A DNA stretch of 62,370 bases, filler included. It is 6 parts of 6 records of this genome, joined end to end, with 100 filler letters (N's around TTAATTAATTAA, not from the genome) between each part and the next. Parts side by side here need not be neighbours in the genome. Positions count along the whole stretch, not along the records: positions 41,875 to 49,105 come from SRR31147125_18527; 5 more parts are not named here. One strand, written 5' to 3'. The notes beneath the pieces are model-generated. The model saw only the letters and a program-made list of their open reading frames with translations. It had not been told where the DNA came from and did not search any database. The translations under genes were made by a program, and so were the position numbers. Below are positions 7,736-59,208 of this stretch, one piece after another. Numbering within the stretch: the stretch's first letter is position 1; the number at the start of each line of letters is the position of its first letter.

Positions 7736-7759
7736 GAATATTAGATATATCCATTATAT

Positions 7760-7795
7760 AAAAAAGCTATTCGATAATTTCGAATAGCTTTTTTT
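7760..7795 (+). terminator. Intrinsic terminator after secG
   Basis: AAAAAAGCTATTCGA-TAATT-TCGAATAGCTTTTTT. Confidence 0.85.
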
Positions 7796-23285: not shown

Positions 23286-23625
23286 ACGTTAATGGAAGGT
23301 GACCGAGCCGAAAGGTTAGGAAAGTCCATGCTAGCACATGCTGAGATGCATGTAGTGTTTGTGCCTAAGGAAATCATAACTTAGGGTATGTCTTTGACAT
23401 AACGGCGTCTGATTGTTCTATTTTAGAACTAGGATGTAACGTGCCACAGAAACGAGCCATTTAGTGATAAATGGATGAAACGCGGTAAACCCCTCAAGCT
23501 AGCAACCCAAAATTAGGTAGGGGCACATATGACATCTAATTGAAGATAACATATGCTACTTTGTAGAGATAAATGGTCACAATCTATTTAATAGATAACA
23601 GAACATGGCTTATGCACATTAACGT
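23286..23625 (+). ncRNA. rnpB: RNase P RNA, bacterial type B
   Basis: P1 ACGTTAATG/CATTAACGT; AGGAAAGTCCATGCTAGCAC, GTGCCACAGAAACG, GAAACGCGGTAAACCCCTCAAGCTAGCAAC, ACAGAACATGGCTTA. Confidence 0.95.
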
Positions 23626-30764: not shown

Positions 30765-30864
30765 NNNNNNNNNNNNNNNNNNNNNNNNNNNNNNNNNNNN
30801 NNNNNNNNTTAATTAATTAANNNNNNNNNNNNNNNNNNNNNNNNNNNNNNNNNNNNNNNNNNNN
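30765..30864. other. Artificial contig linker
   Basis: N44-TTAATTAATTAA-N44. Confidence 0.98.
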
Positions 30865-41774: not shown

Positions 41775-41874
41775 NNNNNNNNNNNNNNNNNNNNNNNNNN
41801 NNNNNNNNNNNNNNNNNNTTAATTAATTAANNNNNNNNNNNNNNNNNNNNNNNNNNNNNNNNNNNNNNNNNNNN
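41775..41874. other. Artificial contig linker
   Basis: N44-TTAATTAATTAA-N44. Confidence 0.98.
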
Positions 41875-42026: not shown

Positions 42027-42434
42027 ATGTTCGTGAGTGACTTATATCTTTTTAATATTGGATTCAGATGTGAGAATATATGTGATGCACTCAAAGAATA
42101 CGAATCAGGTAATGATATGAATGTACTTGCATTACAAGATTCAGTCAAAATAATACATGACTGTCTACTAATTAAAAATGGTAATAGATCATTTTTTGGA
42201 TCTCCCAATAATACAAATGCGGACTTCCTTCCTCTCCTATTTGATTATTTCAATGGTCAGAATATTGATCGAATGGTCAAAACATTAGATAGGATAAATA
42301 AAGTACTTAATGATCTTAGTAACTCAAAGAAGGTTAAAAACACTAAAGAAGTTCAGCATTTTTTTGAGGGAATATCTGATTTATGTTTACGCGAACCTAT
42401 AGATAATAGATCGATGTATTACGGTTTCGCTTAA
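42027..42434 (+). CDS. Hypothetical protein, first gene of the cargo operon
   Basis: 135-aa ORF with AGGAG upstream; no recognisable motif. Confidence 0.7.
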   Translation: MFVSDLYLFNIGFRCENICDALKEYESGNDMNVLALQDSVKIIHDCLLIKNGNRSFFGSPNNTNADFLPLLFDYFNGQNIDRMVKTLDRINKVLNDLSNSKKVKNTKEVQHFFEGISDLCLREPIDNRSMYYGFA

Positions 42435-42467
42435 CTGAAACTTATCATTAATTAGTCGAGCTTAATA

Positions 42468-43846
42468 ATGATCAACAATCTACTTAAAGGCGAAATCTAT
42501 TCAAACATTCTAACTGTAAGGAAAACACTCCAGACACTTAAAACTCAAAGATTCCCGACTAAAGGGGCATCTGACCTCACAGAACTTTTGAATGAAATCA
42601 TTGATATAATGATTTCACGATTTGATAAATATAACAGCAGAAATCTTATATTTATTAAGAAAAAACTATTAACTAGATTTGGTGAATACTGTGGCTATCT
42701 ATCCGCCTCAAGATTAGAGAATATACCATGGAGCATAATTCCTGCATATGAAAAACTTTTAAATCAATATATCCTGATTTTGAGTTTATCTTATGCCCAA
42801 GATGGGAAGTGAATTATTCAATTAATGAAGATACATTAGATAATATTAAAAACTTCATCCTGAAAACACCAAGCCTTCTATTTGATGGAAAGTCACAAGA
42901 TGAGATTGATATTAAGGTCGAAACATTCTTAGAAAATTATCCTTCAGGATTATATTTTATTTTTTATCCAAAACATGAGAAACTCTCTGCATTACATTTT
43001 TCATTACTGGGTCATGAAATAGGGCATATATATTCTACTAAGTGGTTAAATAATAATTATGAGATTTTTTTAACCGAAACTAATTTAAAAAATGAAATCA
43101 AGAAAATTGCTGAAGAAAACTTCAAAAAAGAAAGTAAAAAAATGACTTTATATAAGGAAGTATTCATAAGTAAGACATCATATGAATATGAAAAGTATAT
43201 TAAACTGATACTCAATGAACTAATTTCTGATTTATTTGGTTCTTTAATTTTTGGTCATACTACTCTTGTTGCATCCTATTTATTCTCAAATGGATTAAAC
43301 CTCGATGACCATTGTAATTGGAAAACGGGTCATTTAAGTTGGCGATTTAGGCTACAAAACATATGGGAACTTATCAATTATATTGACACAAAAACGGGAA
43401 AACCCTTCAAGCATGAAAACCAAGTATGGGGAGAAATCATAAAGGAAATCAAAAGAGATTCGAAAGATATTGTTATAAATGAATACATTTCTGTTTTTTT
43501 ACATATATACAAACAGCACAGGGAAAGAATTGTTGAAGAGATACAATCAAGTATAGAGCCACATGTGTATTCAAATTTTCTATCAAATATATTTATAAAT
43601 GAAGCAATTCAAAGAATAAAAAATTGCATTCCACCAAATGCATACTGGAATTCTAGCAATATAGAGACTCCTATAGACTTCAGAAATATATTATTTGGGA
43701 CTTGGCTTTCAATATTTGAGAAAATTGAAGCGAATCATACAGAGTATGAGATTAGATCTAAAAGGATAAATCTCTTGAGTATTAAAGGAATTGAGCTTTC
43801 TATCGAGCAGGAGAACTATAATGACTTTATCGAAACAAGAGATTGA
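42468..43846 (+). CDS. About 459-aa HEXXH (zincin-like) protein, split in the ORF track by an apparent 1-nt deletion at 42751-42760
   Basis: Second frame is open from 42752 (FKSIYPDFEFILCPRWEVNYS); LLGHEIGHIY, downstream ELISD, and GHLSWRFRL. Confidence 0.7.
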
Positions 43847-44447
43847 AAATCGCTTACTTCCATCAAAGAATCCTTGTGAGCAAATTGTTGTAACGCCATT
43901 GTTAAATCCAGTAAAACAAATAGGTCCATGCAGTATAGATATTAGACTTGGGAAACAATTTATAATTTTTAATGAGCAGATTCAAGATACATTTGAACCG
44001 ACAAAAGAGAAAAACTTAGAAGAACTAAAAAAGTATCAAGATGAAGTTGTTGTTCCCTTTGGACACTGCATCATTCTACATCCTGGAAAATTACTAATTG
44101 CAGGTTCATTAGAATATGTAGCCATTCCATTAGATTTAGAATGTCAAGTTGAAGGAAGAAGTTCTTGGGCTAGACTCGGATTAATTACAGCTACTGCAAC
44201 AACAGTAGAGCCAGGTTATAAAGGTATAATTACCTTAGAATTAAGCAATACTGGAAAAATACCGATGAAGTTATTTCCAGGATTACGAATTGCACAACTA
44301 ATATTCCATAGAATCGAGAAAGAAACCGCAAATAGTTATAAAATAGATTCAAAGAAAAAATACAAATATTGCATTGGACCAGGCATCAGTAGAATACATC
44401 ATGATACAGATCTTGACTATTTTTCCCAACAATCAACTCATAATTGA
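43821..44447 (+). CDS. dcd: dCTP deaminase (trimeric dUTPase fold)
   Basis: SIDIRLG, EGRSSWARLGL, VEPGYKGIITLELSNTG, PGLRIAQL; SD AGGAG; overlaps the upstream gene by 26 nt. Confidence 0.9.
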   Translation: MTLSKQEIENRLLPSKNPCEQIVVTPLLNPVKQIGPCSIDIRLGKQFIIFNEQIQDTFEPTKEKNLEELKKYQDEVVVPFGHCIILHPGKLLIAGSLEYVAIPLDLECQVEGRSSWARLGLITATATTVEPGYKGIITLELSNTGKIPMKLFPGLRIAQLIFHRIEKETANSYKIDSKKKYKYCIGPGISRIHHDTDLDYFSQQSTHN

Positions 44448-45346
44448 ACTTTGTTACCAAAATAAGTATCATTGTAATCAATATTTTGAAGATCCAAACT
44501 TGTTTTTAGATGTTTCAAATTTGCCTCTGCAAAATTGTCTATAGTATCTGTATCATTTAAAAGCATGTTTACAAAATCAACAGACCTTGTCATATTTGAA
44601 TATATCAATCTTAAGAAGAGTGAATATCCTTTTGATTCATCATATTCGTGTATCATTTTATACCGAAAATCAGAAAATAATATATCTTTGAGAATTAAAT
44701 ATGTAGAGAAAAACTGAAAATATATTTCTATTTCATTCTTCTCTAAAATAAAATTGAAAAAATCGTCACCATATTTTGAGATTTTTGTTGACAGAAGTAT
44801 AGATAAAATTGTTTTTGCATCCCTACCTAAACTAGGGTTCATCAAGGATTCATATACATATTCTTCTAGTTCATCCTCTAATACCTGATATTGACAATTA
44901 TATAAGTAATTAATACCAGAAAGTTTGATTTCAGGTTCATCAGAGTAAAGATTACTAATTGCATCAGTTTTATTATAGTTTTCCTGGCTTTTTAATGTTT
45001 CAATAATTCTGTTCTTAGCATAATCTTCTATATTTTTTTCCATTTCTATTATTCTAGTCTCGATTTCACTTACAGGCTTAATTCCAAAGAGGTATGTAAT
45101 CAGTGGAAGAACAATACTCAATAATGACAAGAAGCCTATAAGTATTGTCATTATATCTATATAATTTTCAAATTTTCGAACATATTCATTCTCTATTTTC
45201 AGTAAGGTATTATTATATGACTCTTCCAAATCTGAGACTTTTTCAATTATTCTCGATTCAAAATATTGTTGATCTTTCTTCTTATCTGAAGAGATCTGAA
45301 AGACTACAAAACTCAAGAGCAATACCAAAAAAAACTTTTTTTTCAT
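44438..45346 (-). CDS. Hypothetical membrane protein (N-terminal hydrophobic segment, coiled coil, TM, helical C-terminal domain)
   Basis: 302-aa ORF with GGAG SD; TM IMTILIGFLSLLSIVLPLITYLFGI. Confidence 0.7.
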   Translation of the reverse strand: MKKKFFLVLLLSFVVFQISSDKKKDQQYFESRIIEKVSDLEESYNNTLLKIENEYVRKFENYIDIMTILIGFLSLLSIVLPLITYLFGIKPVSEIETRIIEMEKNIEDYAKNRIIETLKSQENYNKTDAISNLYSDEPEIKLSGINYLYNCQYQVLEDELEEYVYESLMNPSLGRDAKTILSILLSTKISKYGDDFFNFILEKNEIEIYFQFFSTYLILKDILFSDFRYKMIHEYDESKGYSLFLRLIYSNMTRSVDFVNMLLNDTDTIDNFAEANLKHLKTSLDLQNIDYNDTYFGNKVQL

Positions 45347-45445
45347 AAGAACTCCATATATTGGATTTATTAAGGCCTATTGAACGATAGTTTAATTTGT
45401 TTTATATATCCTTCATGGGAAATTTTACTATCCATCATTCTGAGA

Positions 45446-45808
45446 TTATTTCTTAACCTCTGCCAAAGACTCAGTATGATAAAGTTCTATCATACCCTGG
45501 ATTTTCATTCTTCGATCTTGATCTAGATGTGAGTAACTCAATACTGATTCCCTAAACTCCCTATCATGATCCATTAATCCTTCAAATCGCATATCTTTCT
45601 TAAGAGGAGAGCATCCATTGATAAGATCTTCTACTGTCGTGTCGAGTGACCGAGCGATTCTGACTGCTCGATCAGCAGGAGGATAACGGTCTTGTTTAAT
45701 CCAAGAATAAACGGTGCCCTTACTAACTCCCACACGTCTTGCCAAGTCTGCCTGAGTTAATGATAACTCTTTAAGCCGTTTCATAACTGTCAACCAAAAT
45801 ACATTCAT
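45446..45808 (-). CDS. XRE/CI-like HTH repressor
   Basis: LTQADLARRVGVSKGTVYSW...IARSLDTTVEDL; start moved to ATG 45808. Confidence 0.88.
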   Translation of the reverse strand: MNVFWLTVMKRLKELSLTQADLARRVGVSKGTVYSWIKQDRYPPADRAVRIARSLDTTVEDLINGCSPLKKDMRFEGLMDHDREFRESVLSYSHLDQDRRMKIQGMIELYHTESLAEVKK

Positions 45809-45910
45809 ACCACTATTATCGCATAGTGCGCATTTGAACACTATTTTTTTAATAAAAATATTGACAAGTCTGCATATGAGCGCTATACATATAGCAGGAG
45901 TGCTCATATG
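45809..45910. promoter_or_regulatory. Divergent promoter/operator switch region
   Basis: TTGACA at 45861 (+); extended -10 TGCGATAAT (-) 6 nt before the repressor ATG; three CACTAT/ATAGTG half-sites; CATATGAGC/GCTCATATG inverted repeat. Confidence 0.65.
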
Positions 45911-46105
45911 AACGCTAGGAAGCAGCTAAATGTATCCCTCCCAGAAGCGATTTATAGATATGCAACTGGTCAGGCAAAGCTTTCAGGAATGTCAATTAAA
46001 GAATTTGTTCAAAAGGCTCTTGTAGCTTATGGCAAACAGTGTGAATCAGAACGAGCGTGTGAAGTGGAAATCATAGAACTTCAGTTACAGGAGAAAAACC
46101 AATGA
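45908..46105 (+). CDS. Ribbon-helix-helix-like small DNA-binding protein (Cro position)
   Basis: KQLNVSLP beta-strand, then helix-GMS-helix; SD AGGAG. Confidence 0.7.
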   Translation: MNARKQLNVSLPEAIYRYATGQAKLSGMSIKEFVQKALVAYGKQCESERACEVEIIELQLQEKNQ

Positions 46106-46467
46106 CAGATATATTAGAGAAATCTGATCTTGTAGATTTCGAAAAACGTCTCATGAGCTATCTGGAAATGATCACGGCAGAGCCAATGAAACAATGGTTC
46201 TCCATGGAAGATCTGGCAAACCTAAGGCAATGCTCAACCTCCGAATTATATAAGAATGCCGAAGTACTACCTCATTTTGGTATTCCTGAGGACCGCTGGG
46301 GACGGACTCCCGTATGGAGCAGAACCACTGTAAAGGATTGGCTGCTGAGAACTCGTAAAGAGCTGGAGATCCTGGCAACAGCCCGGACTCCAGATGAAAT
46401 TGAAAAAGCAGAAATGTTACGGGCAGCGGCATCTGTTCGTAATGGCAATATAGCACTGGTGAAATAG
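46102..46467 (+). CDS. Hypothetical phage early protein, possibly excisionase-like HTH
   Basis: ATGA-coupled; WFSMEDLANLRQCSTSELY...PVWSRTTVKDWL. Confidence 0.55.
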   Translation: MTDILEKSDLVDFEKRLMSYLEMITAEPMKQWFSMEDLANLRQCSTSELYKNAEVLPHFGIPEDRWGRTPVWSRTTVKDWLLRTRKELEILATARTPDEIEKAEMLRAAASVRNGNIALVK

Positions 46468-46547
46468 GAGGTGACATAGAAATAGAAAACTTAATACAAA
46501 TCCCCCTTTGCTGGAGCTTATGACAAGGCGGCTTCAGCACAAAATCA

Positions 46548-46630
46548 GGATCGGTTGTTCATGGTGCGCAACAGGTTTCAACTTCCCCCCTGAGGTTGAA
46601 TCCTTGCAGGTTCGAATCCTGTACGATCCA
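46548..46630 (+). ncRNA. tRNA-like RNA element 1 (non-canonical)
   Basis: Acceptor GGATCG/CGATCC+A; T-arm GCAGG-TTCGAAT-CCTGT; D-arm GTT/AAC with GG; extended middle stem TTCAACTTC/GAGGTTGAA with CCCCCT loop. Confidence 0.65.
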
Positions 46631-46664
46631 TATTTATTTCAAATACAGGTAGGAGAGAGCCAAT

Positions 46665-46952
46665 ATGAACAAGAGAATAATTGATCCTGAATTACTGAAT
46701 CGTGTTGAGGAATGGATAAACGAATCTTCTGAAGTAAACAAAGGGATTGAACAGCTCAGAGAGAAAAGAAAAAACATCATCCAGGATCTTTACACCATCC
46801 TCGGAAACTATGGTTTTAAAATACTGGGAATCAAAGACCCCTGGAATTTCAAAAACGGCACTGTAGATCCCATGTCACCCATCACTTTTCATGTAATTCC
46901 TGAAACACTGGATCCGGATAAAAAGCCCGATGAAAAGGAACTCAATGTTTAA
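46665..46952 (+). CDS. Hypothetical protein
   Basis: SD AGGAGAG; 95 aa, helical/coiled-coil character. Confidence 0.7.
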   Translation: MNKRIIDPELLNRVEEWINESSEVNKGIEQLREKRKNIIQDLYTILGNYGFKILGIKDPWNFKNGTVDPMSPITFHVIPETLDPDKKPDEKELNV

Positions 46953-47066
46953 GAAAAGCAAATAACCTCCTGTTGATTGGTTTGTGGTGATTCATTCTCA
47001 TGAGGTATTGACTGGATATCCTGCCGGAGATTCTTCCGGCCTATTTTTCCAAGAACTTTATGTATC

Positions 47067-47133
47067 GGGCAGGAAGGTGCCTTGGAGGTTTATCTCCTTT
47101 TCCTCTAAGAGGGTTCAATCCCCTCCCTGCTCA
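47067..47133 (+). ncRNA. tRNA-like RNA element 2 (minimal)
   Basis: Acceptor GGGCAGG/CCTGCTC+A; T-arm GAGGG-TTCAATC-CCCTC; reduced D and anticodon regions. Confidence 0.55.
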
Positions 47134-47266
47134 TAACAGAAGCCTGACCAGCTTCTACCGTGCGACACCTGCCCCGGAACGGAGTTTCCGGTGTGGACGG
47201 GTCAAGAGTGGTGTGACTGTCTTGAGAGCGAGGCATAAATAAATATTCATTCATGTGAGGTCAAAC

Positions 47267-47479
47267 ATGGAAACAACAGAAATCTCCTGCGGGTTCCTGT
47301 TCGTCAAGAACGGAGAAACAGTCCCTTGCGGCCAACAGGCCACCCATTACCATGAGGATATTCCCCTCTGCCCTAAATGTACGGAGTACGCCCAGCATAT
47401 CGGATTAAAAACACATCCGATAACCGAGGAGTTTAACCGGAATTGTGAGGACAACGCAAAGGAGGCCGTAACCGCATGA
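47267..47479 (+). CDS. Small Cys-rich putative zinc-binding protein
   Basis: C...PCG...LCPKC; SD GAGGT; ATGA overlap with parA. Confidence 0.6.
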   Translation: METTEISCGFLFVKNGETVPCGQQATHYHEDIPLCPKCTEYAQHIGLKTHPITEEFNRNCEDNAKEAVTA

Positions 47480-48240
47480 AAGTGATCACATTCAGCTCTA
47501 TCAAAGGAGGAACAGGAAAATCATCTTGTTCCATCATGACAGCCAACTATCTGGGACAGTGCGGAAAGAGGATTCTCTGTATTGATCTTGATATCCAGAA
47601 CAGTCTGACCTTCTACTACGGAGAAAATCCCGATCTTCTGGAAACCAATACCATAGCAGAGGCCCTTCATAAAGGAGACCTTAAAGGGAATATCATTCCC
47701 ACCGGTCGGAAGAACATCGATTTCATCCCCTCTTCCTTTAATCTAGTCAACCTTAGAGCCATCAGCCCCTATAGTTTGATGAAACTGCTTCATCAGATCT
47801 CAGATCAGTATGATTACTGCCTGATAGATACGGCCCCGACCTGGGATAACATCACATTGAACGCACTTCATGCTGCCGATCAGATCATTACTCCGGTCCT
47901 TCTCTCTCAGTGGGACTGGAAAGGAGCAGTGTTCTTCCGTAATCAGATCATGCAGGACCTGGGAGAGCATGTTCTTGAAAATTGGAAACTCCTTTTCAAT
48001 GGCTGGAAGATTCCACGGACTGAGAACCCGGAAAATCTGAGCAATCAGCATCTGGCGCTCTTCAAATCCGATTTCGATAACATTCTTCATATACGGATTC
48101 CCGAAACCATGATGGTCAAGAAGCATCTGGATACGGATGAAAAAATCACCATGGCACGGGACAAGAAGAGACTGTACATCGCTATACAGTTTCTCTGTGA
48201 AGCCCTGACTGGTGATCTTATGGATGCCGGAGCCTTCTGA
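47476..48240 (+). CDS. parA: ParA-family partition ATPase
   Basis: KGGTGKS deviant Walker A, IDLDIQNSLT, LIDTAP. Confidence 0.92.
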   Translation: MKVITFSSIKGGTGKSSCSIMTANYLGQCGKRILCIDLDIQNSLTFYYGENPDLLETNTIAEALHKGDLKGNIIPTGRKNIDFIPSSFNLVNLRAISPYSLMKLLHQISDQYDYCLIDTAPTWDNITLNALHAADQIITPVLLSQWDWKGAVFFRNQIMQDLGEHVLENWKLLFNGWKIPRTENPENLSNQHLALFKSDFDNILHIRIPETMMVKKHLDTDEKITMARDKKRLYIAIQFLCEALTGDLMDAGAF

Positions 48241-49079
48241 TGGCAAAGAAACTCACAGTTTCAACGAATGCAGGGAAACGGAATATAACAGGAGGGGAAT
48301 CTCTCTCCCAGTTAACCGAAAAACTTCGGGATCTGAAAAATCGGGTTCCGGTTTCCGTACCGGTAGACACAATTCCCACCGGCGAACCTTTTGTGAACCT
48401 TTTTCCCATTCAGGAAAAGAACAAGAACGCCATCATGGAATCAATCCAGGCAAACGGGTTTGATGATAAGAAGGCCCTGATTGTCGGAGTATTCCCGGAC
48501 GGAAAGAACCTTCTTATCGACGGTCATACACGATTGGCGGCGTCCAAAGCCCTGTCCCTTCCGGAAGTCCCTCTCTGGTATCAGGAGTTCTCTTCTGTTG
48601 ATCAGGCGGTTGACTGGGCGCTCCATGAACAGATTGATCGGAGGAATCTCACAGATGCTGAGATTTATGAGTACGTACTGAAGGTGGATCAGACCGCCGT
48701 CAAAGGAACAAGGTTTGATGATGGATATAAAGGAAAAACGGCAGCCCGAACAGCTCAGATCATCGGGATTTCCCGGGGGCGGGTGGAAAAGATCAGGACT
48801 GTTAAGAAACGGGCTTCTGAGACTCAGAAAAAGGAACTCAGCACAGGTCAGAAATCTCTTAATCGAGTCTATGAAGAGGTAAAGGAAAAGAAAGCCACAG
48901 ATGAGGCTAAAACGGAACGGGATTGGCAGATTGAAATCCGGGGAGCATCGATATCACTGATCCGCAAGAATCAGGTGATCCCATTGGTTAATTGTAAATC
49001 CATGGTGGAACTCTATGACGGCGCTCCCCTCTCCCAGATCCGGAGAGAAGTTGAAAAATGGATGGTCAAGGTCCTGTAA
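48240..49079 (+). CDS. parB: ParB-like partition protein
   Basis: ESIQANG, LIDGHTRL, RRNLT, HTH TAQIIGISRGRVEK; overlaps the parA stop. Confidence 0.85.
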   Translation: MAKKLTVSTNAGKRNITGGESLSQLTEKLRDLKNRVPVSVPVDTIPTGEPFVNLFPIQEKNKNAIMESIQANGFDDKKALIVGVFPDGKNLLIDGHTRLAASKALSLPEVPLWYQEFSSVDQAVDWALHEQIDRRNLTDAEIYEYVLKVDQTAVKGTRFDDGYKGKTAARTAQIIGISRGRVEKIRTVKKRASETQKKELSTGQKSLNRVYEEVKEKKATDEAKTERDWQIEIRGASISLIRKNQVIPLVNCKSMVELYDGAPLSQIRREVEKWMVKVL

Positions 49080-49080
49080 A

Positions 49081-49100
49081 AGATCCGGTTTCCCGGATCT
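49081..49100. repeat. 8-bp inverted repeat directly after parB (parS candidate or hairpin)
   Basis: AGATCCGG-TTTC-CCGGATCT. Confidence 0.5.
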
Positions 49101-49105
49101 CGAAA

Positions 49106-49205
49106 NNNNNNNNNNNNNNNNNNNNNNNNNNNNNNNNNNNNNNNNNNNNTTAATTAATTAANNNNNNNNNNNNNNNNNNNNNNNNNNNNNNNNNNNNNNN
49201 NNNNN
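49106..49205. other. Artificial contig linker
   Basis: N44-TTAATTAATTAA-N44. Confidence 0.98.
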
Positions 49206-49340
49206 AAAAAAATAACCCGAAAACAGGCAATTAAAAAAGTTGGCTTAACTGCACTTACCACATCAACCTTATTTATTCTGGAATCTAAAGCAAGATCTGG
49301 AACTTCTGCTGGAAGAATCGCCGACAGTGACGATAAGTAA
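49206..49340 (+). CDS. Precursor-like peptide 1 (5'-truncated; absent from the ORF track)
   Basis: KKITRKQAIKKVGLTALTTSTLFILESKARSGTSAGRIADSDDK*; leader homologous to peptides 2 and 3. Confidence 0.8.
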   Translation, partial: KKITRKQAIKKVGLTALTTSTLFILESKARSGTSAGRIADSDDK

Positions 49341-49607
49341 TATTGTAGAATTTGTTAATTTCGGTTGGCGGTAATTATAATTTTAATTTTTTTTGAGTGT
49401 TTTATTGTGCTTAATCTCGTTCAACTTTATTAATCAAAGCTGTTACATTATAAGTACTTCTATTTAGTACTTAATATTGTACTAAGATTCCCAAAATGGA
49501 AAAATATCTACGCTTTTCATAGTTAAATATATTAGTAACGGGCGTCAATTGGAATTTTGTCCGATATTTGTTGTATTCATTTAAACTCTCAAATAATCAC
49601 AATAAAA

Positions 49608-49829
49608 ATGGAAAAAGGGAAGAAAATAACCAGTAAAGAGGCAATAAAGAAAGCTGGTGTAACAGCACTTGCAGCTTCAACTTTAACGTTACTGGATACC
49701 AAGGCTGCTAGTGCGTGCTCTGGTGTTAATGCAAATGGTACTGCTGGTCAAGGTAATCAGAACCAGAATCAGAACCAGAATCAGAACCAAAACCAAAATC
49801 AGAACGGGAACGGTTGGGGTAGACCTTAA
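49608..49829 (+). CDS. Precursor-like peptide 2 (73 aa) with (NQ)8 tail
   Basis: MEKGKKITSKEAIKKAGVTALAASTLTLLDTKAASACSG...GWGRP. Confidence 0.85.
   Translation: MEKGKKITSKEAIKKAGVTALAASTLTLLDTKAASACSGVNANGTAGQGNQNQNQNQNQNQNQNQNGNGWGRP
49755..49805 (+). repeat. Coding hexamer tandem repeat AAYCAR (Asn-Gln x8)
   Basis: AATCAGAACCAG units read directly. Confidence 0.9.
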
Positions 49830-50287: not shown

Positions 50288-50394
50288 AATATAAATGCTA
50301 TTCATAATTAAATATTGAAATAACTTGATTTTAATTGGAGTTTAGTCGATATTTGTTATCAATTATTAAAACTCTCAATAAATTGCAATTTAAA

Positions 50395-50592
50395 ATGGAA
50401 AAAGGGAAGAAAATATCAAGAAAAGAGGCTATTAAAAAAGTTGGTGTATCGGCACTTGCAACATCTACTTTAGTTTTTCTTGAAACCAAAGCAGCAAGTG
50501 CATGTTCTGGAACAAAACCCGGAGAGATACCGATGCCACCACCACCTCTTCCGCCACCACCTCCACAACAACCACGACCACCAAAACCTTAA
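50395..50592 (+). CDS. Precursor-like peptide 3 (65 aa) with polyproline tail
   Basis: MEKGKKISRKEAIKKVGVSALATSTLVFLETKAASACSGTKPGEIPMPPPPLPPPPPQQPRPPKP. Confidence 0.85.
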   Translation: MEKGKKISRKEAIKKVGVSALATSTLVFLETKAASACSGTKPGEIPMPPPPLPPPPPQQPRPPKP

Positions 50593-50713: not shown

Positions 50714-51855
50714 GTGGATAAACTTATGCCCTCCCGGAATGCAACGGTAAGCATTAATATTGATGGTACGCAACTTATTTGGTTTAAAAACTCCGGTTCA
50801 TTTGTTTTAATGGAAGAACCTGCATACAATGTTCTTCAACTACAACAAGAGAATAAGACGCTCAGTGAAATTGTAGAATATTGTAGTGAGAAATATGGGC
50901 ATCTTGAAGCTGATATTGCAGGATTTGTTCATGAAATTACCGAGTATATTAAGCAGTTGAATACAAATAGTCTAAAAGATTTCTCGAATAATGAGAAGGA
51001 AATGCCTGGTTGTAATCAAGCAACATGCGAAGAAGTTTATTATAAATTCGGGGAAAAGGTAATTTCGATTATTTATAGCAATGTTTATTTAAAAGAGCAG
51101 ATTCATTATCTATTCCAACATCTGGAAATATCGCAGGGACACTCAGACTATCGAATTGAGCTTTCTGAAAATGATGAACGTTTGTATTTTCAGGATATGG
51201 AGCAAAAAATTACAAGTTTCCATAGCAATGAAATTGAGTATTTTAAAGGAGCAATTCTTAAATATTTATGTGCTTTAATTCACGATAAAAATCCAGATAA
51301 ATGGATGATGACAATACATGCTTCCGGAATAATTAAAAATAACGATGCTGTATTATTTGTGGCGAGCGAAGGCAGTGGAAAAAGTACTGTGTCGGCTTTG
51401 TTGCAAACGTTTGGTTATACAAATTTATCTGACGACCTTGTTGTGGCAGACAGTAATGCAAAAGTATATCCATTCCCCGCCGGAATATCAGTGAAGAAGG
51501 GTGCGTTTAACATTATTGCTCAGTATTATCCCGAAGTTTTAAATCAAAAGGTTAACAAGAATCACGTAAAACCTGCCAGGTTTATTCCAAATCACAATTG
51601 CGATGGTGAAGTTGGTAAGGGATATGAAATTAAAGCGGTGGTTTTTGTTGATTATAATCCTAACGAAGAACAAGAATTCAGACTACTTGATACTAAAAGT
51701 AGTATTCCCCGATTTTTAAAAGAAACGTGGATTAATCCTGACGAAAAGAATATATCGAACTTTTTAATTGGATTTCGGGTGCCGATTTTTATGAAATGAG
51801 ATATTTCGATATAAAACAAGTTGAAAAGAATATCTCAGGTATATTTGAAGGATGA
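50714..51855 (+). CDS. PqqD/RRE-like domain fused to an HPr-kinase-like P-loop kinase (apparent 1-nt deletion at T5 51761-51765)
   Basis: N-terminal strand-strand-strand-helix pattern (LIWF...FVLMEEPAYNVL...TLSEIVEYCSEKY); IHASG, ASEGSGKST, LSDD; restoring one T extends the ORF to a TGA overlapping the next ATG. Confidence 0.75.
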
Positions 51856-52921
51856 ATCTGAAGGAACAATATTATTTTGTAGCGCAATGTCTCACCCTTG
51901 ATCAATTTCCTGAAATTAGGGATAAGGTGATTTCTGCATTTTCGAATGGAGAAGTTTTATATGAAAATTTTATTTCAATATGCGATAAAAATCTTATTCT
52001 GCCTGTAATATACCTTAAGTTTAAAAGGCACGATTTATTGTATTTATTTCCCGAAGATCTGATTTTGCAACTTCAAAATATTTATGAATTAAATAAAAAC
52101 CGTAATACTGCTATTCTTAAGCAGGTTGATGAAATAAATTTAAAATTAGATCAAGTAGGAATAGAACCGGTTTATTTAAAAGGAGTAGCCCATATTCTTG
52201 ATGGTTTGTATACTGATATTGGAGAAAGAATGTTGATTGATATAGATCTTCTGGTAAAAGAAGAACACTATTTTAATACAGTGCATTTTATAAAGGAATT
52301 GAATTATAAAGAACATAAAGAAGACCCTGGTAATGCTTTGCCACACACTAAACACTACACTCCACTATTCCGTAATAACGATTTTGCAACGGTAGAAATT
52401 CATCGGTACCCGGTAGATTTTAACTACTCCAAGAATTTTTCAACTGAAAATATGTTTAAAAGGAAGTTGAAGATAAATGGTAATCTAAACTTTTTTATTC
52501 CCTGCGATGAGGATAAAATTGTCCATAATTTTATTCACAGTCAGCTCAGTGATTTAGGATATATTTTAAAATCAACTTCTATAAGAGATATGTATGATAT
52601 GTATCTTCTATCTCTAAGAAGGACTTCAAAAAGCCAAGTTAAAATAAAACAATATAAAAAGAGATTTTGTGCTTATACCTATTATGTGAGTGAGGTATTT
52701 AACACCATGGTATTTTTGAAAGAACGCCTGATTTAAGAACTGTAATTCACCGGAAATTAAGCGATTTTTTTCTGAATCATCCAAAAACAAACAATAGATA
52801 TATTCATATAATTTATTTTTTCCGACGCTACTTTATGTATTATCCCAGTCGATATTATAAAGTAATATTTAGCAAAGCATATAGAAAATATTTGTTCGAA
52901 AGGAAATTGGCGAATACGTGA
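51852..52921 (+). CDS. Nucleotidyltransferase family protein (NTP_transf_5-like; apparent 1-nt deletion near 52713-52717)
   Basis: PVYLKG, GERMLIDIDLLV, VEIH; restored frame is open to TGA 52919-52921. Confidence 0.82.
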
Positions 52922-56725: not shown

Positions 56726-56825
56726 NNNNNNNNNNNNNNNNNNNNNNNNNNNNNNNNNNNNNNNNNNNNTTAATTAATTAANNNNNNNNNNNNNNNNNNN
56801 NNNNNNNNNNNNNNNNNNNNNNNNN
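56726..56825. other. Artificial contig linker
   Basis: N44-TTAATTAATTAA-N44. Confidence 0.98.
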
Positions 56826-56826
56826 T

Positions 56827-58110
56827 TTTTCCCCCATACTTTTCAGCAATTTTTGGGTAACAGCCAGTACATTTCGATCGGATTTCAGCTTTGATGTCAT
56901 AACTGAAAAGAATACAATTAATGATTTCACCGTAAAAGGTGATTTGGAGTATTATTATTTAAAAAATCTGAATGCCAAATTCGGATTTGAGGTGAAAAGT
57001 TTGACAGGGGAATATGTGCAGGATTTTCCCGGCGGCCATGTCAATGTAAATAATGATTCCAGGCACTATGCCGGCTATGTCCAGGGAAACTGGCGGCCGA
57101 CGCCACTGTGGGATATTCAGGCTGGTTTGCGATATAATTATTTTGATTCGAATAAGGATTTTCAGTCTCTGTCTCCCCGTTTCTCCATGAAATACCGGCT
57201 TTCTGAAACTACAAATCTTAAATCGGCTTTCGGGATGTATAATCAATATTTGTTCAAGATTCCCCGTACATTTGTTGTTGATATTTGGACAAACGCAGAT
57301 CAATATTATAGCGGGTCCAAAGCAAATCATTATCTTTTGGGATTTCAGAAAGAAGTGGCTCAGGATTATGAATTCGAAGTAGAAGCGTTTTATAAAGATT
57401 ATCGAAATATATACGACTTTTCTTACTTTTTTTATGTGGATATAGAACCAGGCCGTTACAATAGCGATGGTGAACCCATATATACGTCAGCAAACGGGCT
57501 GTTTGATCGTGGAAAAGGTGAATCTTTGGGACTCGAATTTATGTTTCGTAAAGATATTGGTCTGGTTACTGGCTGGCTCTCATACACGCTTGGGCGTACG
57601 CAATTTAATATGACCGGTATTAATGATAATAATGATTTTCCGCCGCGACATGATCGGCTTTCCATGTTAAATCTTGTGACAAATATGGATCTCAGAAATG
57701 TTTTTCGCACGATAAAGGGGCGGCCTCAAAAAGATGATCGGACAAAGTGGCGTCTGGGACTTTCACTGGTTTACGCGTCTGGACAACCCATTACGACGAC
57801 AAGCTCTATCTATTTTACAACACCTTTGCCAGATCAACCCTTTGATAATAGCTTGAATCTTTATCCGACAGAAAAAAATAATTTTCGATTGCCAGCTTAC
57901 ATGCGTCTGGATCTTTCTCTTTCCTATGAGAAAAAATATAAATCCTGGTCATATTCTCCGTATTTGCAAATATATAATATTGGAAATCGTAAAAATGTCT
58001 GGTATATCGATTACGACAGGAAAGTGGAAAACGAGACACTTGTTCAGGAGATCGACACGATTAGTATGCTCCCAATTTTACCAACTATTGGTGTGAATAT
58101 AAATTTTTAA
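56827..58110 (+). CDS. TonB-dependent receptor, 5'-truncated
   Basis: Frame open from the contig edge; AGLRY, LSPRFS, GWLSYT, RLPAYMRLDLS, C-terminal Phe. Confidence 0.88.
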   Translation, partial: FSPILFSNFWVTASTFRSDFSFDVITEKNTINDFTVKGDLEYYYLKNLNAKFGFEVKSLTGEYVQDFPGGHVNVNNDSRHYAGYVQGNWRPTPLWDIQAGLRYNYFDSNKDFQSLSPRFSMKYRLSETTNLKSAFGMYNQYLFKIPRTFVVDIWTNADQYYSGSKANHYLLGFQKEVAQDYEFEVEAFYKDYRNIYDFSYFFYVDIEPGRYNSDGEPIYTSANGLFDRGKGESLGLEFMFRKDIGLVTGWLSYTLGRTQFNMTGINDNNDFPPRHDRLSMLNLVTNMDLRNVFRTIKGRPQKDDRTKWRLGLSLVYASGQPITTTSSIYFTTPLPDQPFDNSLNLYPTEKNNFRLPAYMRLDLSLSYEKKYKSWSYSPYLQIYNIGNRKNVWYIDYDRKVENETLVQEIDTISMLPILPTIGVNINF

Positions 58111-58188
58111 ATATAATTTTGTTTATAAAACATGTAACAGTAACAGGTTTGTTGAAACTAATTATTTGGTATATGAAAGATTTGAAAA

Positions 58189-59118
58189 TTGTATATGGAG
58201 TCTGATGTGAGACTAGTATTAATAAAAATGTTATTTTTGGCTTTAACTTTGTTTGTACTTTCATGTGGAGAGGGTGTTGTTAATGTGGATGATAAAAGTT
58301 TTGAACCCAAGATCGTTTTGGAGGGTTACATATCACCTCATCAAAAGGTTAAGGAGGTCCGAATATCGAGAAATTTTCCTTTGAATCAAAAGATCGATAT
58401 TCAGAAATTTATAATATCAGATGCTTCAGTTGTGCTTACGGACCTGGAAAGTCAGCAGGAATATCCGCTAACATATCACCCCGGGCTTTTTGCATATGAA
58501 TATCAGGGTAATGACCTGGAAATAGAGCATGGAAAAAGTTACCAACTTGATGTGGCGGCGACTATTGACGGTAAAAATTTATTTGCCAGCTCTACAACCA
58601 CTGTGCCTCTAGCCGGATTTGCCATAAATGAGGAGTTGTCCGAGTTAGAGCCTATGGCTTACAGAGAAATGGATGAAAACAATAATCTTAAAAATTTCAA
58701 GATCGCATTTAGCAAATCATCAAATATCGATTTTTATGTCTTGTCTATTATAGCTCTGGATGCCTCTTTGGAAACATTTATTGAAGATAATCCTCTAGGG
58801 ATCGAAAGAAAAGATCTGGAGGATGATGATGATTTATTTGCGCAGTTTAAATACACGGAAGATTGGTTGCAATCCTCTTTTGGATCAGGAGCAATTTCCC
58901 GGCATGAGATATTATGGTTTTTTACCTGGTTTTACGGACGATATCGTGCTATCATGTACGCTGGAGATCAAAATTTTAAATATTATTTTACCACTCACGA
59001 GCAAGTTCAGGATATTGATGGTAATCTGTATGAGCCAAAATTTAATATAGATGGTGACGGAATTGGTGTTTTCGGTTCGTTTGTTGCCGATACCGTTTAT
59101 TTTGAGATAACAAGATAA
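58189..59118 (+). CDS. DUF4249-like lipoprotein partnering the TonB-dependent receptor
   Basis: Lipobox VLSC; KIVLEGYI; NIDGDGIGVFGS; true start may be GTG 58207 or ATG 58228. Confidence 0.75.
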   Translation: MYMESDVRLVLIKMLFLALTLFVLSCGEGVVNVDDKSFEPKIVLEGYISPHQKVKEVRISRNFPLNQKIDIQKFIISDASVVLTDLESQQEYPLTYHPGLFAYEYQGNDLEIEHGKSYQLDVAATIDGKNLFASSTTTVPLAGFAINEELSELEPMAYREMDENNNLKNFKIAFSKSSNIDFYVLSIIALDASLETFIEDNPLGIERKDLEDDDDLFAQFKYTEDWLQSSFGSGAISRHEILWFFTWFYGRYRAIMYAGDQNFKYYFTTHEQVQDIDGNLYEPKFNIDGDGIGVFGSFVADTVYFEITR

Positions 59119-59141
59119 GGGTGCAACGACCCGGTACTAAA

Positions 59142-59184
59142 AAAACGTGACAAAGATTGTTATTACGAATCTCTGTCACGTTTA
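59142..59184. terminator. Bidirectional terminator
   Basis: AAACGTGACAAAGATT...AATCTCTGTCACGTTT between convergent genes. Confidence 0.7.
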
Positions 59185-59208
59185 AAAAAAATAGCTAATT
59201 GTTTTTAT

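What the first reader, a model, noticed from the sequence alone, without database searches (positions are those of the whole stretch)
46548..46630. tRNA-shaped RNA with a lengthened middle arm and a C-rich loop instead of an anticodon
Seen: acceptor stem, D-arm with GG, canonical T-arm (GGTTCGAATCC) and discriminator A. The anticodon arm is replaced by about 11 bp of stem closing CCCCCT, so it should not decode. A 9-bp hairpin (TGCTGGAGC/GCTTCAGCA, 46509-46539) precedes it. Known: P1/P7 C4 and P4 CI immunity RNAs are cut from early transcripts by RNase P and act by antisense pairing. Inference: a processed regulatory RNA whose C-rich loop could pair with SD-like sequences, or a tRNA mimic/decoy against anticodon nucleases.
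Basis: partly seen in the sequence, partly recalled or inferred. Interest (0 to 1): 0.7.

Follow-up and report, generated by a model that had tools for sequence, protein, structure and literature searches.

The report
Non-decoding tRNA-shaped RNA in prophage early operon
A fragment of a temperate phage carries a real tRNA-derived RNA that cannot read codons; it is one of several conserved tRNA-shaped modules lying between the phage's early genes, most likely as cutting sites for the host's tRNA-processing enzymes.

Summary
Bases 46548-46630 (+) fold into a cloverleaf with a 12-pair middle arm closed by CCCCCU (z = -4.0). ARAGORN and Rfam do not call it a tRNA or any known family.

It lies in a 3.7-kb higher-GC phage early region at a contig end: CI-type repressor, small genes, this RNA (t1), ORF95, a second tRNA-like module (t2, 47067-47133), a structured leader, a zinc-ribbon ORF, ParA and a ParB-like protein.

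Three related prophages, one in an Oceanispirochaeta MAG and two in genomes of its order, have the same layout. Their modules are orthologous and their acceptor and T stems covary:
- t1 family: 47 of 48 cells paired, 6 of 12 pairs compensatory.
- t2 family: 48 of 48 cells paired, 4 of 12 pairs compensatory.

The middle arm is not conserved. Relatives have a 5-pair stem with a 10-11-nt loop instead. Four more distant ParAB loci carry an unrelated-sequence tRNA-like module 42-53 nt upstream of parA.

Best reading (confidence 0.5): top-half tRNA mimics, co-transcribed with the early operon and cut by RNase P and RNase Z. They punctuate the transcript and release a stable small RNA.

This is a new variant of a known kind; no expression data exist.

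The parts
45446..45907 (-). CI/Cro-type HTH repressor gene. The true start is probably internal. It is the first gene of the higher-GC phage segment.
   Evidence: Pfam HTH_3 1.7e-10 and Phage_CI_repr 1.4e-8; PHROG transcriptional repressors; GC rises from 0.28 to 0.40-0.48 at about 45400.
45908..46105 (+). ORF65, a small Cro-position gene at the start of the rightward early operon.
   Evidence: ORF list. No family match. Small genes stand at the same position in L001, L097 and L098.
46102..46467 (+). ORF121, a small early protein directly upstream of t1. It looks Xis/AlpA-like by eye; this was not tested.
   Evidence: Only 1 homologue at E <= 0.001 (P0001, 64% identity) among 28 candidates in 5.8 billion proteins. 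A similar-looking ORF (109 aa in L001) precedes the tRNA-like modules in L001, L097 and L098, but tblastn did not link them at the E <= 0.001 to 0.01 cut-offs used.
46509..46539 (+). 9-pair hairpin lying 8 nt upstream of t1, with no U-run after it. It is a candidate 3'-end protector for the upstream mRNA once it has been cut.
   Evidence: Sequence. Not called a terminator. A hairpin also precedes every t2-type module.
46548..46630 (+). t1, the reported tRNA-shaped RNA. Acceptor 46548-46554 with 46623-46629; D-arm 46557-46572; 12-pair middle arm 46574-46603 with CCCCCU loop 46586-46591; T-arm 46606-46622; discriminator A at 46630.
   Evidence: Fold z = -4.03. ARAGORN finds none. Rfam is below threshold. 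Covariation with L001, L097 and L098 orthologues: 47 of 48 cells paired and 6 of 12 pairs compensatory.
46665..46952 (+). ORF95, an insert between the two tRNA-like modules. It is absent from the relatives.
   Evidence: No tblastn match in L001, L097 or L098. One 302-letter contig of the source sample's run joins 46631 to 47014 with 21 other letters in place of these 382 bases.
47023..47040 (+). Hairpin with a U-run (terminator-like) lying 26 nt upstream of t2.
   Evidence: Terminator-like site. Hairpins at the same relative place in L001, L097 and L098 differ in sequence and lack a U-run.
47067..47133 (+). t2, a second tRNA-like module with a 7-pair acceptor stem and a T-arm but no D-arm or anticodon arm. 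Its middle is pyrimidine-rich.
   Evidence: Orthologues in L001, L097 and L098: 48 of 48 cells paired and 4 of 12 pairs compensatory.
47134..47266 (+). Conserved structured leader. It contains a hairpin 47138-47156 with an invariant 7-nt loop CUGACCA, a long-range helix, a covarying hairpin, and a hairpin (47252-47269) that holds the SD and start codon of the next ORF.
   Evidence: Alignment A6 and RNAalifold: 35 pairs, 7 with compensatory changes. The 18-mer around the start codon is identical in 4 of 4 sequences.
47267..47479 (+). ORF74 (ORF listing start GTG 47255; 70 aa from the conserved ATG at 47267), a zinc-ribbon-like small protein.
   Evidence: tblastn homologues in L001, L097 and L098 at 39-49% identity. 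No family match.
47476..48240 (+). ParA-type ATPase gene.
   Evidence: Pfam AAA_31 2.5e-30; PHROG 164 ParA-like 8.4e-43.
48240..49079 (+). ParB-like gene. The contig ends at 49105.
   Evidence: PHROG 4715 ParB-like 6.7e-13. 54% identity to P0002/L001. The linker of N runs starts at 49106.

Best explanation
t1 is a tRNA-derived RNA module of a temperate phage that does not decode. It keeps only what the tRNA-processing machinery reads: a 7-pair acceptor stem, the T-arm, and the D-loop/T-loop elbow.

It is transcribed as part of the rightward early operon, between a small Xis-like gene and the zinc-ribbon/ParA/ParB-like genes. Host RNase P then cuts at its 5' end (46548) and RNase Z or exonucleases cut at its 3' end (after 46630).

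This splits the polycistronic early RNA into separately stable pieces. The hairpin at 46509-46539 would protect the new 3' end of the upstream piece. The cut also releases an ~83-nt tRNA-shaped RNA, probably CCA-tailed and stable.

The second module t2 does the same job in front of the structured leader of the ORF74-parA-parB genes.

Shown:
- the structure
- conservation and covariation of the top half
- the operon position
- the absence of an anticodon loop

Inferred:
- co-transcription
- cleavage by RNase P and RNase Z
- the effect on mRNA stability

Whether the released RNA also acts in trans through its C-rich loop is left open (see the first rival).
For: 1. Structure. The cloverleaf is the minimum-energy fold, z = -4.03. 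U8, A14, GG and the T-loop TTCGAAT are present.

2. Conservation. Three related prophages (L001, L097, L098) have a module at the same place.
- t1 family: acceptor and T stems pair in 47 of 48 cells, 6 of 12 pairs have changes on both sides, 0 of 500 shuffles reach the covariation score, and slid controls pair in only 22-54% of cells.
- t2 family: 48 of 48 cells paired, 4 of 12 pairs compensatory, 2 of 500 shuffles reach the score.

3. Only the top half is conserved.
- The middle arm is a 12-pair stem with a 6-nt loop in the window. In the relatives it is a 5-pair covarying stem with a 10-11-nt loop (read by eye).
- ARAGORN assigns the relatives three different anticodons: Leu-GAG, Ile-GAT and Lys-TTT.
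- The middle arm is an unrelated long hairpin in the distant loci.

4. Co-transcription.
- No promoter-like site lies between 46468 and 46548.
- In L097 and L098 the module starts 10-14 nt after the preceding stop codon.
- All genes and modules are on one strand.

5. Position at cistron boundaries.
- A hairpin stands just upstream of t1 and of every t2-type module.
- In 4 more distant ParAB loci (L030, L031, L043, L044) a module with a 7-pair acceptor stem (6 of 7 positions pair in L031) and a T-arm ends 42-53 nt before the parA start.
- L039 and L040 have weaker versions.

6. Precedent. RNase P is known to cut phage C4 antisense RNA precursors and polycistronic mRNAs (passages of PMC11143913). 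It also cuts a tRNA-like Y RNA that has a 7-pair acceptor stem (passages of PMC4201824).
Against: - There are no RNA data of any kind. Ends, cleavage and stability are all untested.
- Only 4 sequences support each covariation count, and three come from one bacterial order. The shuffle control can overstate significance for related sequences.
- Not every ParAB locus has a module. L028, L032, L036, L045 and L047 show none in the 400 nt upstream of parA. L038 has only tRNA 3' remnants on the other strand.
- A pure processing signal would not need a D-arm, nor a conserved loop in the relatives ((A/U)UU(G/U)AGAGGC). It would also not need the C-rich loop that a second variant in the same sample keeps. 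These features hint at an additional trans-acting or protein-binding role.
- Pair 7-66 of t1 is G.A.
Confidence: 0.5

Rival explanations
1. t1 is a trans-acting regulatory RNA on a tRNA scaffold, working like P1/P7 C4 or P4 CI. After maturation, the exposed apical loop (CCCCCU here, a purine-rich 10-11-nt loop in the relatives) pairs with a G-rich or SD-like site in a phage or host mRNA. The pairing controls translation or immunity. The variable middle arm is the specificity module.
For: - The middle arm is the part that differs between phages while the scaffold is kept.
- Within the three relatives the loop sequence is conserved while its closing stem covaries: CGGAG/CUCCG, GCGGG/CCUGC, CAGGG/CCCCG (by eye).
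- A 302-letter contig of the source sample carries a second variant with the same 12 letters around the C-rich loop. Below that, three stem pairs are changed on both sides and still pair (read by eye from a 30-letter loose end).
- C-rich loops that pair with SD sequences are a known sRNA design (recalled: RsaE/RoxS).
Against: - No target was found. The best duplex of the loop region with the 3.7 kb held is -17.6 kcal/mol, and 53 of 100 shuffled seeds equal or beat it.
- AGGGGG does not occur in 45350-49106.
- The complement of the relatives' loop shows no consistent site in L001, L097 or L098.
- The rest of the window's phage is not available to search.
- There is no Rfam C4 match.
- The variant comes from the same sample, is close in sequence, and is known only from 30 letters.
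Confidence: 0.2
2. t1 is a tRNA mimic that engages host tRNA-binding proteins. Candidates are the CCA-adding enzyme, modification enzymes, EF-Tu, or an aminoacyl-tRNA synthetase that does not read the anticodon, with LeuRS the obvious one. It could also engage a tRNA-directed defence protein. It would act as a bait, sponge or charged cofactor.
For: - The elbow nucleotides and the A73 discriminator are kept.
- The 5' halves of the L097 and L098 orthologues resemble tRNA-Leu 5' halves more than 5 other tRNAs from the fetched loci: scores 6-9 against -8 to 3 (small panel).
- Bacterial LeuRS does not need the anticodon (recalled, not checked in a paper here).
- tRNA-like Y RNAs are modified and CCA-tailed by tRNA enzymes (PMC4201824 passages).
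Against: - The window's own t1 does not resemble tRNA-Leu in its 5' half (scores -4 and -5).
- No anticodon loop is present, so it cannot decoy anticodon nucleases.
- No partner gene such as Ro60, a ligase or a nuclease lies nearby (Pfam and PADLOC scans).
- There is nothing beyond shape to support it.
Confidence: 0.12
3. t1 is a decaying phage tRNA gene or a remnant of an attachment site, with no present function.
For: - Phages often carry tRNA genes and integrate at tRNA genes. L001's prophage lies next to tRNA-Leu(TAA) and an integrase.
- tRNA 3' remnants occur in L038.
- One orthologue (L097) still scores 32.6 bits with the Rfam tRNA model, where the gathering score is 29.
Against: - Both strands of the acceptor stem and the D-arm are present, not just a 3' part.
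- The stems covary across four phages whose ParB-like proteins are only 45-54% identical.
- The module lies about 7 kb from the integrase and attL in L001, inside the early operon.
- The long arm pairs too well to be decay.
Confidence: 0.08
4. The element works at the DNA level rather than as RNA, for example as a centromere or operator for ParB or ParA, a replication origin, or a recombination site.
For: It is linked to parA-parB across distant loci.
Against: - Sequence is not conserved between distant loci. Only the base-pairing and the tRNA T-loop consensus are kept.
- Compensatory changes preserve a strand-specific cloverleaf.
- G.U pairs appear where the opposite strand would have A.C mismatches.
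Confidence: 0.05
5. t1 is a decoding tRNA with an unusual anticodon arm.
For: The overall cloverleaf fits. ARAGORN calls the relatives tRNAs.
Against: - t1 has a 12-pair stem with a 6-nt loop.
- The relatives have 10-11-nt loops, and ARAGORN gives three inconsistent anticodons.
- ARAGORN finds nothing in the window.
- Two of the three relatives (L001, L098) are not reported by the Rfam tRNA model; only L097 passes, at 32.6 bits.
Confidence: 0.02

Closest known systems
tRNA-like processing signals inside longer transcripts: plant mitochondrial and haloarchaeal t-elements, the mascRNA of MALAT1, and the mitochondrial tRNA-punctuation model (recalled; RNase P substrates listed in passages of PMC11143913)
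   Same: - A tRNA top half (acceptor stem, T-arm, elbow) with no decoding function.
- Embedded in a longer RNA at the border between functional units.
- Presumed to be cut by RNase P and RNase Z.
- The anticodon region is free to vary.
   Different: - This one is in a bacterial temperate phage's early operon.
- There are two or three modules per operon.
- It is coupled to hairpins and to a conserved leader before parA-type genes.
- I know of no bacterial or phage example of this arrangement, and the four literature searches that ran listed none.
- Processing is not shown here.
P1/P7 C4 and P4 CI immunity RNAs (Rfam C4)
   Same: They are small RNAs of temperate phages that RNase P cuts from a longer early transcript (PMC11143913 passages). 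The position in an immunity or early region is similar.
   Different: - No match to the Rfam model.
- t1 is a full tRNA cloverleaf with a canonical T-loop, which C4 is not (recalled).
- No antisense target was found.
YrlA-type bacterial and phage Y RNAs (PMC4201824, abstract and passages read)
   Same: They are tRNA-derived, non-decoding RNAs with conserved D and T arms. Some phages carry them. One with a 7-pair acceptor stem is cut by RNase P and CCA-tailed.
   Different: - In YrlA the acceptor-like stem is a closed stem-loop and the RNA ends lie in the Ro60-binding stem. Here the ends are at the acceptor stem and the middle arm is closed.
- YrlA genes lie next to Ro60. No TROVE protein is among the 30 window proteins scanned.
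- No Rfam Y RNA hit.
Canonical tRNA (Rfam RF00005), perhaps tRNA-Leu as ancestor
   Same: Acceptor stem, D-arm with GG, T-arm GGTTCGAATCC, discriminator A and U8 all fit. The orthologue in L097 reaches 32.6 bits.
   Different: - There is no 5-pair stem with a 7-nt anticodon loop.
- t1 scores below 20.7 bits.
- ARAGORN finds nothing.
Other anticodon-less tRNA look-alikes noted earlier in this scan (e1-5900310, e1-5966286, e1-4402636, e1-5876322; AI notes, not checked here)
   Same: They are phage or mobile-element tRNA-shaped genes with the anticodon arm replaced by a longer hairpin. One has a C-rich loop.
   Different: - Those were mostly single cases without relatives.
- Here there are orthologues with covariation, a fixed operon position and a link to parA.

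Membership tests
Canonical decoding tRNA (RF00005) | 7-pair acceptor stem, D-arm and T-arm with conserved elbow nucleotides | tested here: met
   Fold and sequence. 6 Watson-Crick pairs plus G.A in the acceptor stem. GG in the D-loop. T-loop TTCGAAT.
Canonical decoding tRNA (RF00005) | 5-pair anticodon stem with a 7-nt loop (U33, anticodon, purine 37) | tested here: not met
   12-pair stem closed by the 6-nt loop CCCCCU.
Canonical decoding tRNA (RF00005) | Detected by tRNA finders or reaches the Rfam gathering score | tested here: not met
   ARAGORN finds 0 genes in the window. There is no Rfam tRNA hit at gathering score. The best clan hit is 20.7 bits.
P1/P7 C4 and P4 CI antisense RNAs (Rfam C4) | Match to the family's covariance model | tested here: not met
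   No C4 hit at E <= 10 in 46300-46800 or at E <= 1 in 45350-49106.
P1/P7 C4 and P4 CI antisense RNAs (Rfam C4) | Loops complementary to target sites in the same phage's operon | tested here: inconclusive
   No site in the 3.7 kb held beats shuffled seeds (53 of 100). The rest of the phage is not in the window.
P1/P7 C4 and P4 CI antisense RNAs (Rfam C4) | Matured from a longer transcript by RNase P | not testable with these tools
   No RNA data. Only the operon position suggests co-transcription.
tRNA-like processing elements (t-element / mascRNA type) | tRNA top half kept, anticodon region dispensable | tested here: met
   Acceptor and T stems covary. The middle arm is different in every lineage.
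tRNA-like processing elements (t-element / mascRNA type) | Embedded in a longer transcript at a border between units | tested here: inconclusive
   It is on the same strand and between ORFs. No promoter-like site lies upstream. Orthologues start 10-14 nt after a stop codon. No transcript data.
tRNA-like processing elements (t-element / mascRNA type) | Cleaved by RNase P and RNase Z in vivo | not testable with these tools
   No RNA-seq holder was listed for this DNA.
YrlA / Y RNA | Encoded next to a Ro60 (TROVE) gene | tested here: not met
   No TROVE domain among the 30 window proteins scanned with Pfam or the 10 L001 proteins.
YrlA / Y RNA | RNA ends in a Ro-binding stem, with the acceptor-like stem closed by a loop | tested here: not met
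   Here the ends are at the acceptor stem and the middle arm is closed. YrlA architecture is taken from PMC4201824 passages.
tmRNA | tRNA-like domain formed by the two ends around a tag reading frame | tested here: not met
   ARAGORN finds no tmRNA. There is no Rfam tmRNA hit. The RNA is 83 nt with a D-arm.
tRNA-derived attachment-site remnant | Only the 3' part of a tRNA, at the border of the element beside the integrase | tested here: not met
   The 5' acceptor strand and D-arm are present and covary. In L001 the module lies about 7 kb from the integrase and tRNA-Leu.

The most novel reading that the evidence does not exclude
A family of phage-encoded, tRNA-Leu-derived RNAs without an anticodon. 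They would be matured like tRNAs (RNase P, RNase Z, CCA addition) and perhaps leucylated. They would then act in trans as programmable regulators, with the exchangeable middle arm as the specificity module and the tRNA body as a stability and processing scaffold. That would make them natural 'tRNA-scaffold sRNAs'. Their role would be to set the timing of the early genes and the partition-type genes of temperate phages.
Probability: 0.15. Interest if true: 0.8.

Novelty: new variant of a known kind. Interest (0 to 1): 0.55.

Why it matters
- tRNA-shaped processing signals are textbook for organelles and for a few eukaryotic long RNAs. In bacteria and phages they are hardly documented beyond the loosely tRNA-like C4 and CI RNAs.
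- Here a small but clear family combines true tRNA top halves, a fixed place in a prophage early operon and a repeated link to parA. This gives a concrete, testable case of a phage using host tRNA-maturation enzymes to shape its own early transcripts or to make stable small RNAs.
- It also warns annotators. ARAGORN names the relatives Leu, Ile and Lys tRNAs although none can decode.
- If the middle arm proves to be a specificity module, the family would be a natural counterpart of engineered tRNA-scaffold RNAs.

Tried and rejected
Similarity and collection searches that found no relatives:
- blastn of 45400-47500 against phage and plasmid collections: no match.
- tblastn of the ParB-like protein against plasmids and phages: only 10 and 2 distant hits below 36% identity. 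These were not followed up.
- IMG/VR scans: 6 of 8 used, none gave a relative.
  - ORF121 alone and the ORF121 alignment found nothing.
  - The t1 3' 22-mer gave 0 hits.
  - The leader 18-mer gave 0 hits.
  - The t2 T-arm pattern gave 43 loci, all ordinary tRNAs or remnants by eye.
  - The C-loop-plus-T-arm pattern gave 1 unrelated high-GC hit.
- Metagenome contigs, 2 of 2 scans used:
  - The ORF121 alignment found nothing.
  - The leader pattern gave 1 chance hit inside a high-GC coding region.
- Genome contigs with the ORF121 alignment: nothing.

Searches among relatives of G001:
- Leader 18-mer with up to 2 mismatches in 401 genomes of the class of G001: 19 genomes matched. Only G001, G408 and G409 carry the leader motifs, and control (reversed) patterns matched about as often as the rest.
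- C-loop-plus-T-arm pattern in the same 401 genomes: 0.

Things that could not be done:
- No whole genome is held for the window.
- Sequencing runs: no RNA holder listed. The only holder is the probable source sample.
- Most of the stretch had no Logan contig laid on it. That says nothing.

Tests that came back negative:
- Target search for the C-rich loop: no better than shuffles.
- The complement of the relatives' loop has no consistent site. A 10-mer in L097 near 3146 looked like chance.
- PADLOC: 0 hits for 9 window proteins.
- NCBIfam: nothing for the small ORFs.
- t2's inner hairpin plus U-run as an attenuator: flagged but not conserved in L097 or L098.
- No covariance model was built. 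With a variable middle arm it would mainly find ordinary tRNAs.
Full report
**The observation.**
- a 7-position acceptor stem (six Watson-Crick pairs and a G.A)
- U8
- a D-arm with A14 and GG
- a 12-pair middle arm (one U.U and one U.G) closed by the six-base loop CCCCCU
- a T-arm with the consensus GGTTCGAATCC
- discriminator A, with no encoded CCA

The 9-pair hairpin at 46509-46539 is also there.

RNAfold returns this cloverleaf as the minimum-energy and centroid structure. Its energy is -33.8 kcal/mol, against -20.4 +/- 3.3 for 200 dinucleotide-preserving shuffles. That gives z = -4.03, with none of the 200 shuffles as stable.

ARAGORN finds no tRNA or tmRNA in the whole window. At gathering scores Rfam finds only an RNase P RNA elsewhere in the window. 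At permissive thresholds the best hit on the feature is tRNA-Sec at 20.7 bits (gathering 47), badly aligned, and there is no C4 hit. The feature is therefore tRNA-shaped, not an ordinary tRNA, and not a catalogued family.

**Where it lies.**
The window is a pseudomolecule of six contigs joined by N-runs around TTAATTAATTAA. The feature's contig is 41875-49105. Within it the G+C content jumps from about 0.28 to 0.40-0.48 at about 45400 and stays high to the contig end.

That 3.7-kb segment reads like the early region of a temperate phage:
- a CI-type HTH repressor on the minus strand (45446-45907)
- then, on the plus strand, ORF65 and ORF121
- the feature, which I call t1
- ORF95
- a 300-nt stretch with no convincing ORF
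- a small zinc-ribbon-like ORF74
- a ParA ATPase and a ParB-like protein

In the non-coding stretch there is a second tRNA-like module, t2 (47067-47133). It has a 7-pair acceptor stem and the T-arm GAGGGTTCAATCCCCTC, but no D-arm or anticodon arm.

**Relatives.**
This phage type is rare in the collections.
- ORF121 has one homologue in 5.8 billion proteins.
- Six scans of viral contigs, two of metagenome contigs, one of genome contigs, and BLAST against phage and plasmid records gave no relative.
- The ParB-like protein has a 54%-identical homologue on a 2.6-Mb contig.
- The second genome-contig scan fetched it as L001, from an Oceanispirochaeta MAG.
- Searching the 38 genomes of that genome's order gave two more, L097 and L098.

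L001 is a prophage. An integrase lies beside tRNA-Leu(TAA), followed by a SIR2-like gene and a CI-type repressor. After ParA and ParB come a DnaD-like protein, a second recombinase, HNH, small and large terminase, portal and head protease.

All three relatives have the same early layout as the window, with tRNA-like modules between the small Xis-like ORF and the ORF74 homologue.

**Orthologous modules and covariation.**
A cloverleaf module stands at t1's position in L001 (8679-8753), L097 (4631-4708) and L098 (4736-4816). In L097 and L098 it follows the small ORF directly; in L001 the extra module described below lies in between. These modules share t1's beginning (GGnnnGGTTGT), a D-arm and a T-arm.

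On that alignment the acceptor and T stems give these counts:
- 47 of 48 cells form standard pairs.
- 6 of 12 pairs have changes on both sides.
- 0 of 500 column shuffles reach the covariation score.
- Sliding the partner by 1-3 columns drops pairing to 22-54%.

For t2 and its three orthologues the same stems pair in 48 of 48 cells. There are 4 compensatory pairs, and 2 of 500 shuffles reach the score.

With four sequences, three of them from one order, these numbers are modest. They are nevertheless consistent and in register.

L001 has a third module (8485-8555) lacking a D-arm.

Downstream of t2 a leader of about 130 nt is conserved in all four:
- a hairpin with an invariant 7-nt loop CUGACCA and a covarying stem
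- a long-range helix
- a covarying hairpin
- a hairpin that encloses the SD and start codon of ORF74, where 18 bases are identical in 4 of 4
- RNAalifold finds 35 pairs, 7 of them with compensatory changes.

**What is not conserved.**
The middle arm differs between lineages.
- In the three relatives, by eye, it is a 5-pair stem that covaries (CGGAG/CUCCG, GCGGG/CCUGC, CAGGG/CCCCG with one A.C).
- That stem closes a 10-11-nt loop, (A/U)UU(G/U)AGAGGC(A).
- ARAGORN forces three different anticodons on these modules: Leu-GAG, Ile-GAT and Lys-TTT.
- Rfam's tRNA model passes only one of them, at 32.6 bits.
- The window's t1 has the 12-pair stem and C-rich loop instead.

The C-rich arm is not a one-off. 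One 302-letter contig from the run that probably gave rise to this assembly matches t1's T-arm and 3' end (25 letters, 1 difference). It also matches the hairpin at 47014-47040, and it has 21 other letters in place of ORF95.

In the 30 letters before the match, that contig carries the same 12 letters around the C-rich loop. Below them, three stem pairs are changed on both sides and still pair (read by eye). This comes from the same sample and is a small piece, so it is a hint only.

**A wider link to parA.**
Among 401 genomes sampled from the phylum of L001's genome, 20 have a ParB-like homologue at E <= 1e-8. I fetched 20 stretches around them.

Four loci (L030, L031, L043, L044) carry a module with a 7-position acceptor stem (all seven pair in L030, L043 and L044; six of seven in L031), a T-arm with a TTCRANY loop, and an unrelated long middle hairpin. 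In each it ends 42-53 nt before the parA start, on the same strand. L031 also reaches 44.8 bits with the tRNA model, yet has a 9-pair stem and a 5-nt loop.

L039 and L040 have a perfect T-arm with a weaker acceptor stem. L028, L032, L036, L045 and L047 show nothing in the 400 nt upstream. L038 has only 3' tRNA remnants on the other strand.

In about 120 kb of these loci the strict T-arm motif gave 25 hits. All but about three of these are tRNAs or these modules, so the placement is not chance.

**How it most likely works.**
What selection keeps is the tRNA top half: acceptor stem, T-arm and elbow. What it lets go is the anticodon arm. The top half is what RNase P, RNase Z and the CCA-adding enzyme read (established knowledge; RNase P's non-tRNA substrates are listed in PMC11143913, passages read).

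The modules sit on the coding strand at borders between cistrons.
- No promoter-like site lies upstream of t1.
- There are only 10-14 nt between the preceding stop codon and the module in L097 and L098.
- A hairpin stands a few bases upstream of t1 and of each t2-type module.

I therefore read them as punctuation marks. The early transcript is cut at both ends of each module. The upstream piece ends in a protective hairpin. The downstream piece, the leader plus ORF74-parA-parB, gets a defined 5' end. A stable tRNA-shaped RNA is released.

All of this is inference; nothing about RNA has been measured. I put it at 0.5.

The conserved loop of the relatives and the retained C-rich loop of the variant leave room for a second, trans-acting or protein-binding role (0.2 and 0.12). 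However, the loop region finds no target in the 3.7 kb held that beats shuffled seeds (53 of 100 do as well).

The remaining readings are unlikely, for the reasons given under the rivals:
- decay product or att remnant: 0.08
- DNA-level site: 0.05
- decoding tRNA: 0.02

**Comparison with what is known.**
It works like t-elements or mascRNA, and perhaps like C4 or CI. It fails the one membership feature of C4 that could be tested, the covariance-model match; its target test was inconclusive.

It differs from YrlA Y RNAs in topology and in lacking a Ro60 neighbour (PMC4201824, abstract and passages; Pfam scans).

Four full-text searches ran (a fifth was rejected for a too-short term). I read only their listings and abstract starts. 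They showed no description of tRNA-like modules in prophage early operons or upstream of parA. Subscription journals are not covered.

Earlier notes of this scan list other anticodon-less tRNA look-alikes in phages. None is similar in sequence.

**Verdict.**
The feature is real and conserved, and it is a non-decoding tRNA mimic with a defined place in a phage operon. It is a new variant of a known kind. Interest is moderate (0.55). The mechanism is plausible but untested, and the family is small.

Noticed in passing
window 47134-47270: A conserved structured leader lies between t2 and ORF74. It contains an anticodon-arm-like hairpin with an invariant 7-nt loop CUGACCA (47138-47156). It also contains a hairpin that encloses the SD and start codon, where 18 bases are identical in all four phages. 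It matches no Rfam family and may control translation of ORF74-parA-parB.
   Followed up: partly
window 23291-23617: A class B bacterial RNase P RNA (241 bits) lies just after a PNPase gene. Other contigs of the same window encode outer-membrane beta-barrel and TonB-dependent receptor proteins. Class B RNase P RNA is usually a trait of Firmicutes (recalled), so the organism or the purity of the bin deserves a look.
   Followed up: no
window 7796-7895, 30765-30864, 41775-41874, 49106-49205, 56726-56825: The window is a pseudomolecule. Six contigs are joined by N44-TTAATTAATTAA-N44 linkers, so gene order across these points means nothing. Contigs 1-7795 and 56826-62370 have higher G+C (0.36-0.44) than the middle ones (about 0.30).
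   Followed up: partly
window 42027-45346: A low-GC block lies next to the phage repressor. It holds three ORFs without family matches, a dCTP deaminase-like gene (43791-44447, Pfam DCD 6.5e-33) and a 302-aa membrane-like ORF on the other strand. L001 has a SIR2-like gene at the same relative position. It may be a phage-borne defence cassette, but PADLOC gives no hit.
   Followed up: partly
window 46665-46952: ORF95 is missing in the three related prophages. It is also missing in a 302-letter, high-depth contig of the source sample, which joins 46631 to 47014. It looks like an inserted extra gene between the two tRNA-like modules.
   Followed up: partly
window 49207-49340, 49557-49829, 50335-50592, with 50714-52736: Three small ORFs share a leader-like N-terminus (MEKGKKI..KEAIKK.GV.AL...) and have different low-complexity tails. 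They lie next to a 361-aa ORF with no family match and an NTP_transf_5 nucleotidyltransferase. This may be a precursor-peptide (RiPP-type) cluster.
   Followed up: no
L001 about 8113-8135; L097 3998-4016 and 4260-4278; L098 about 4370-4388: A palindromic box, AGCGCAAyrTTGCGCT, stands just before the SD of successive early ORFs in the three related prophages. It could be an operator or an RNA hairpin. I did not look for it in the window.
   Followed up: no
L038 about 3695 and 3896 (minus strand); L029, L036, L043: Several ParAB loci lie within 250-350 nt of real tRNA genes, or of tRNA 3'-end remnants, on the opposite strand. This fits integration of these elements at tRNA genes. These remnants are separate from the same-strand tRNA-like modules.
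   Followed up: partly
L001 8679-8753, L097 4631-4707, L098 4737-4815, L031 4034-4105: ARAGORN calls these non-decoding modules tRNA-Leu(GAG), Ile(GAT), Lys(TTT) and Ser(ACT). Such calls in genome annotations are probably wrong.
   Followed up: yes
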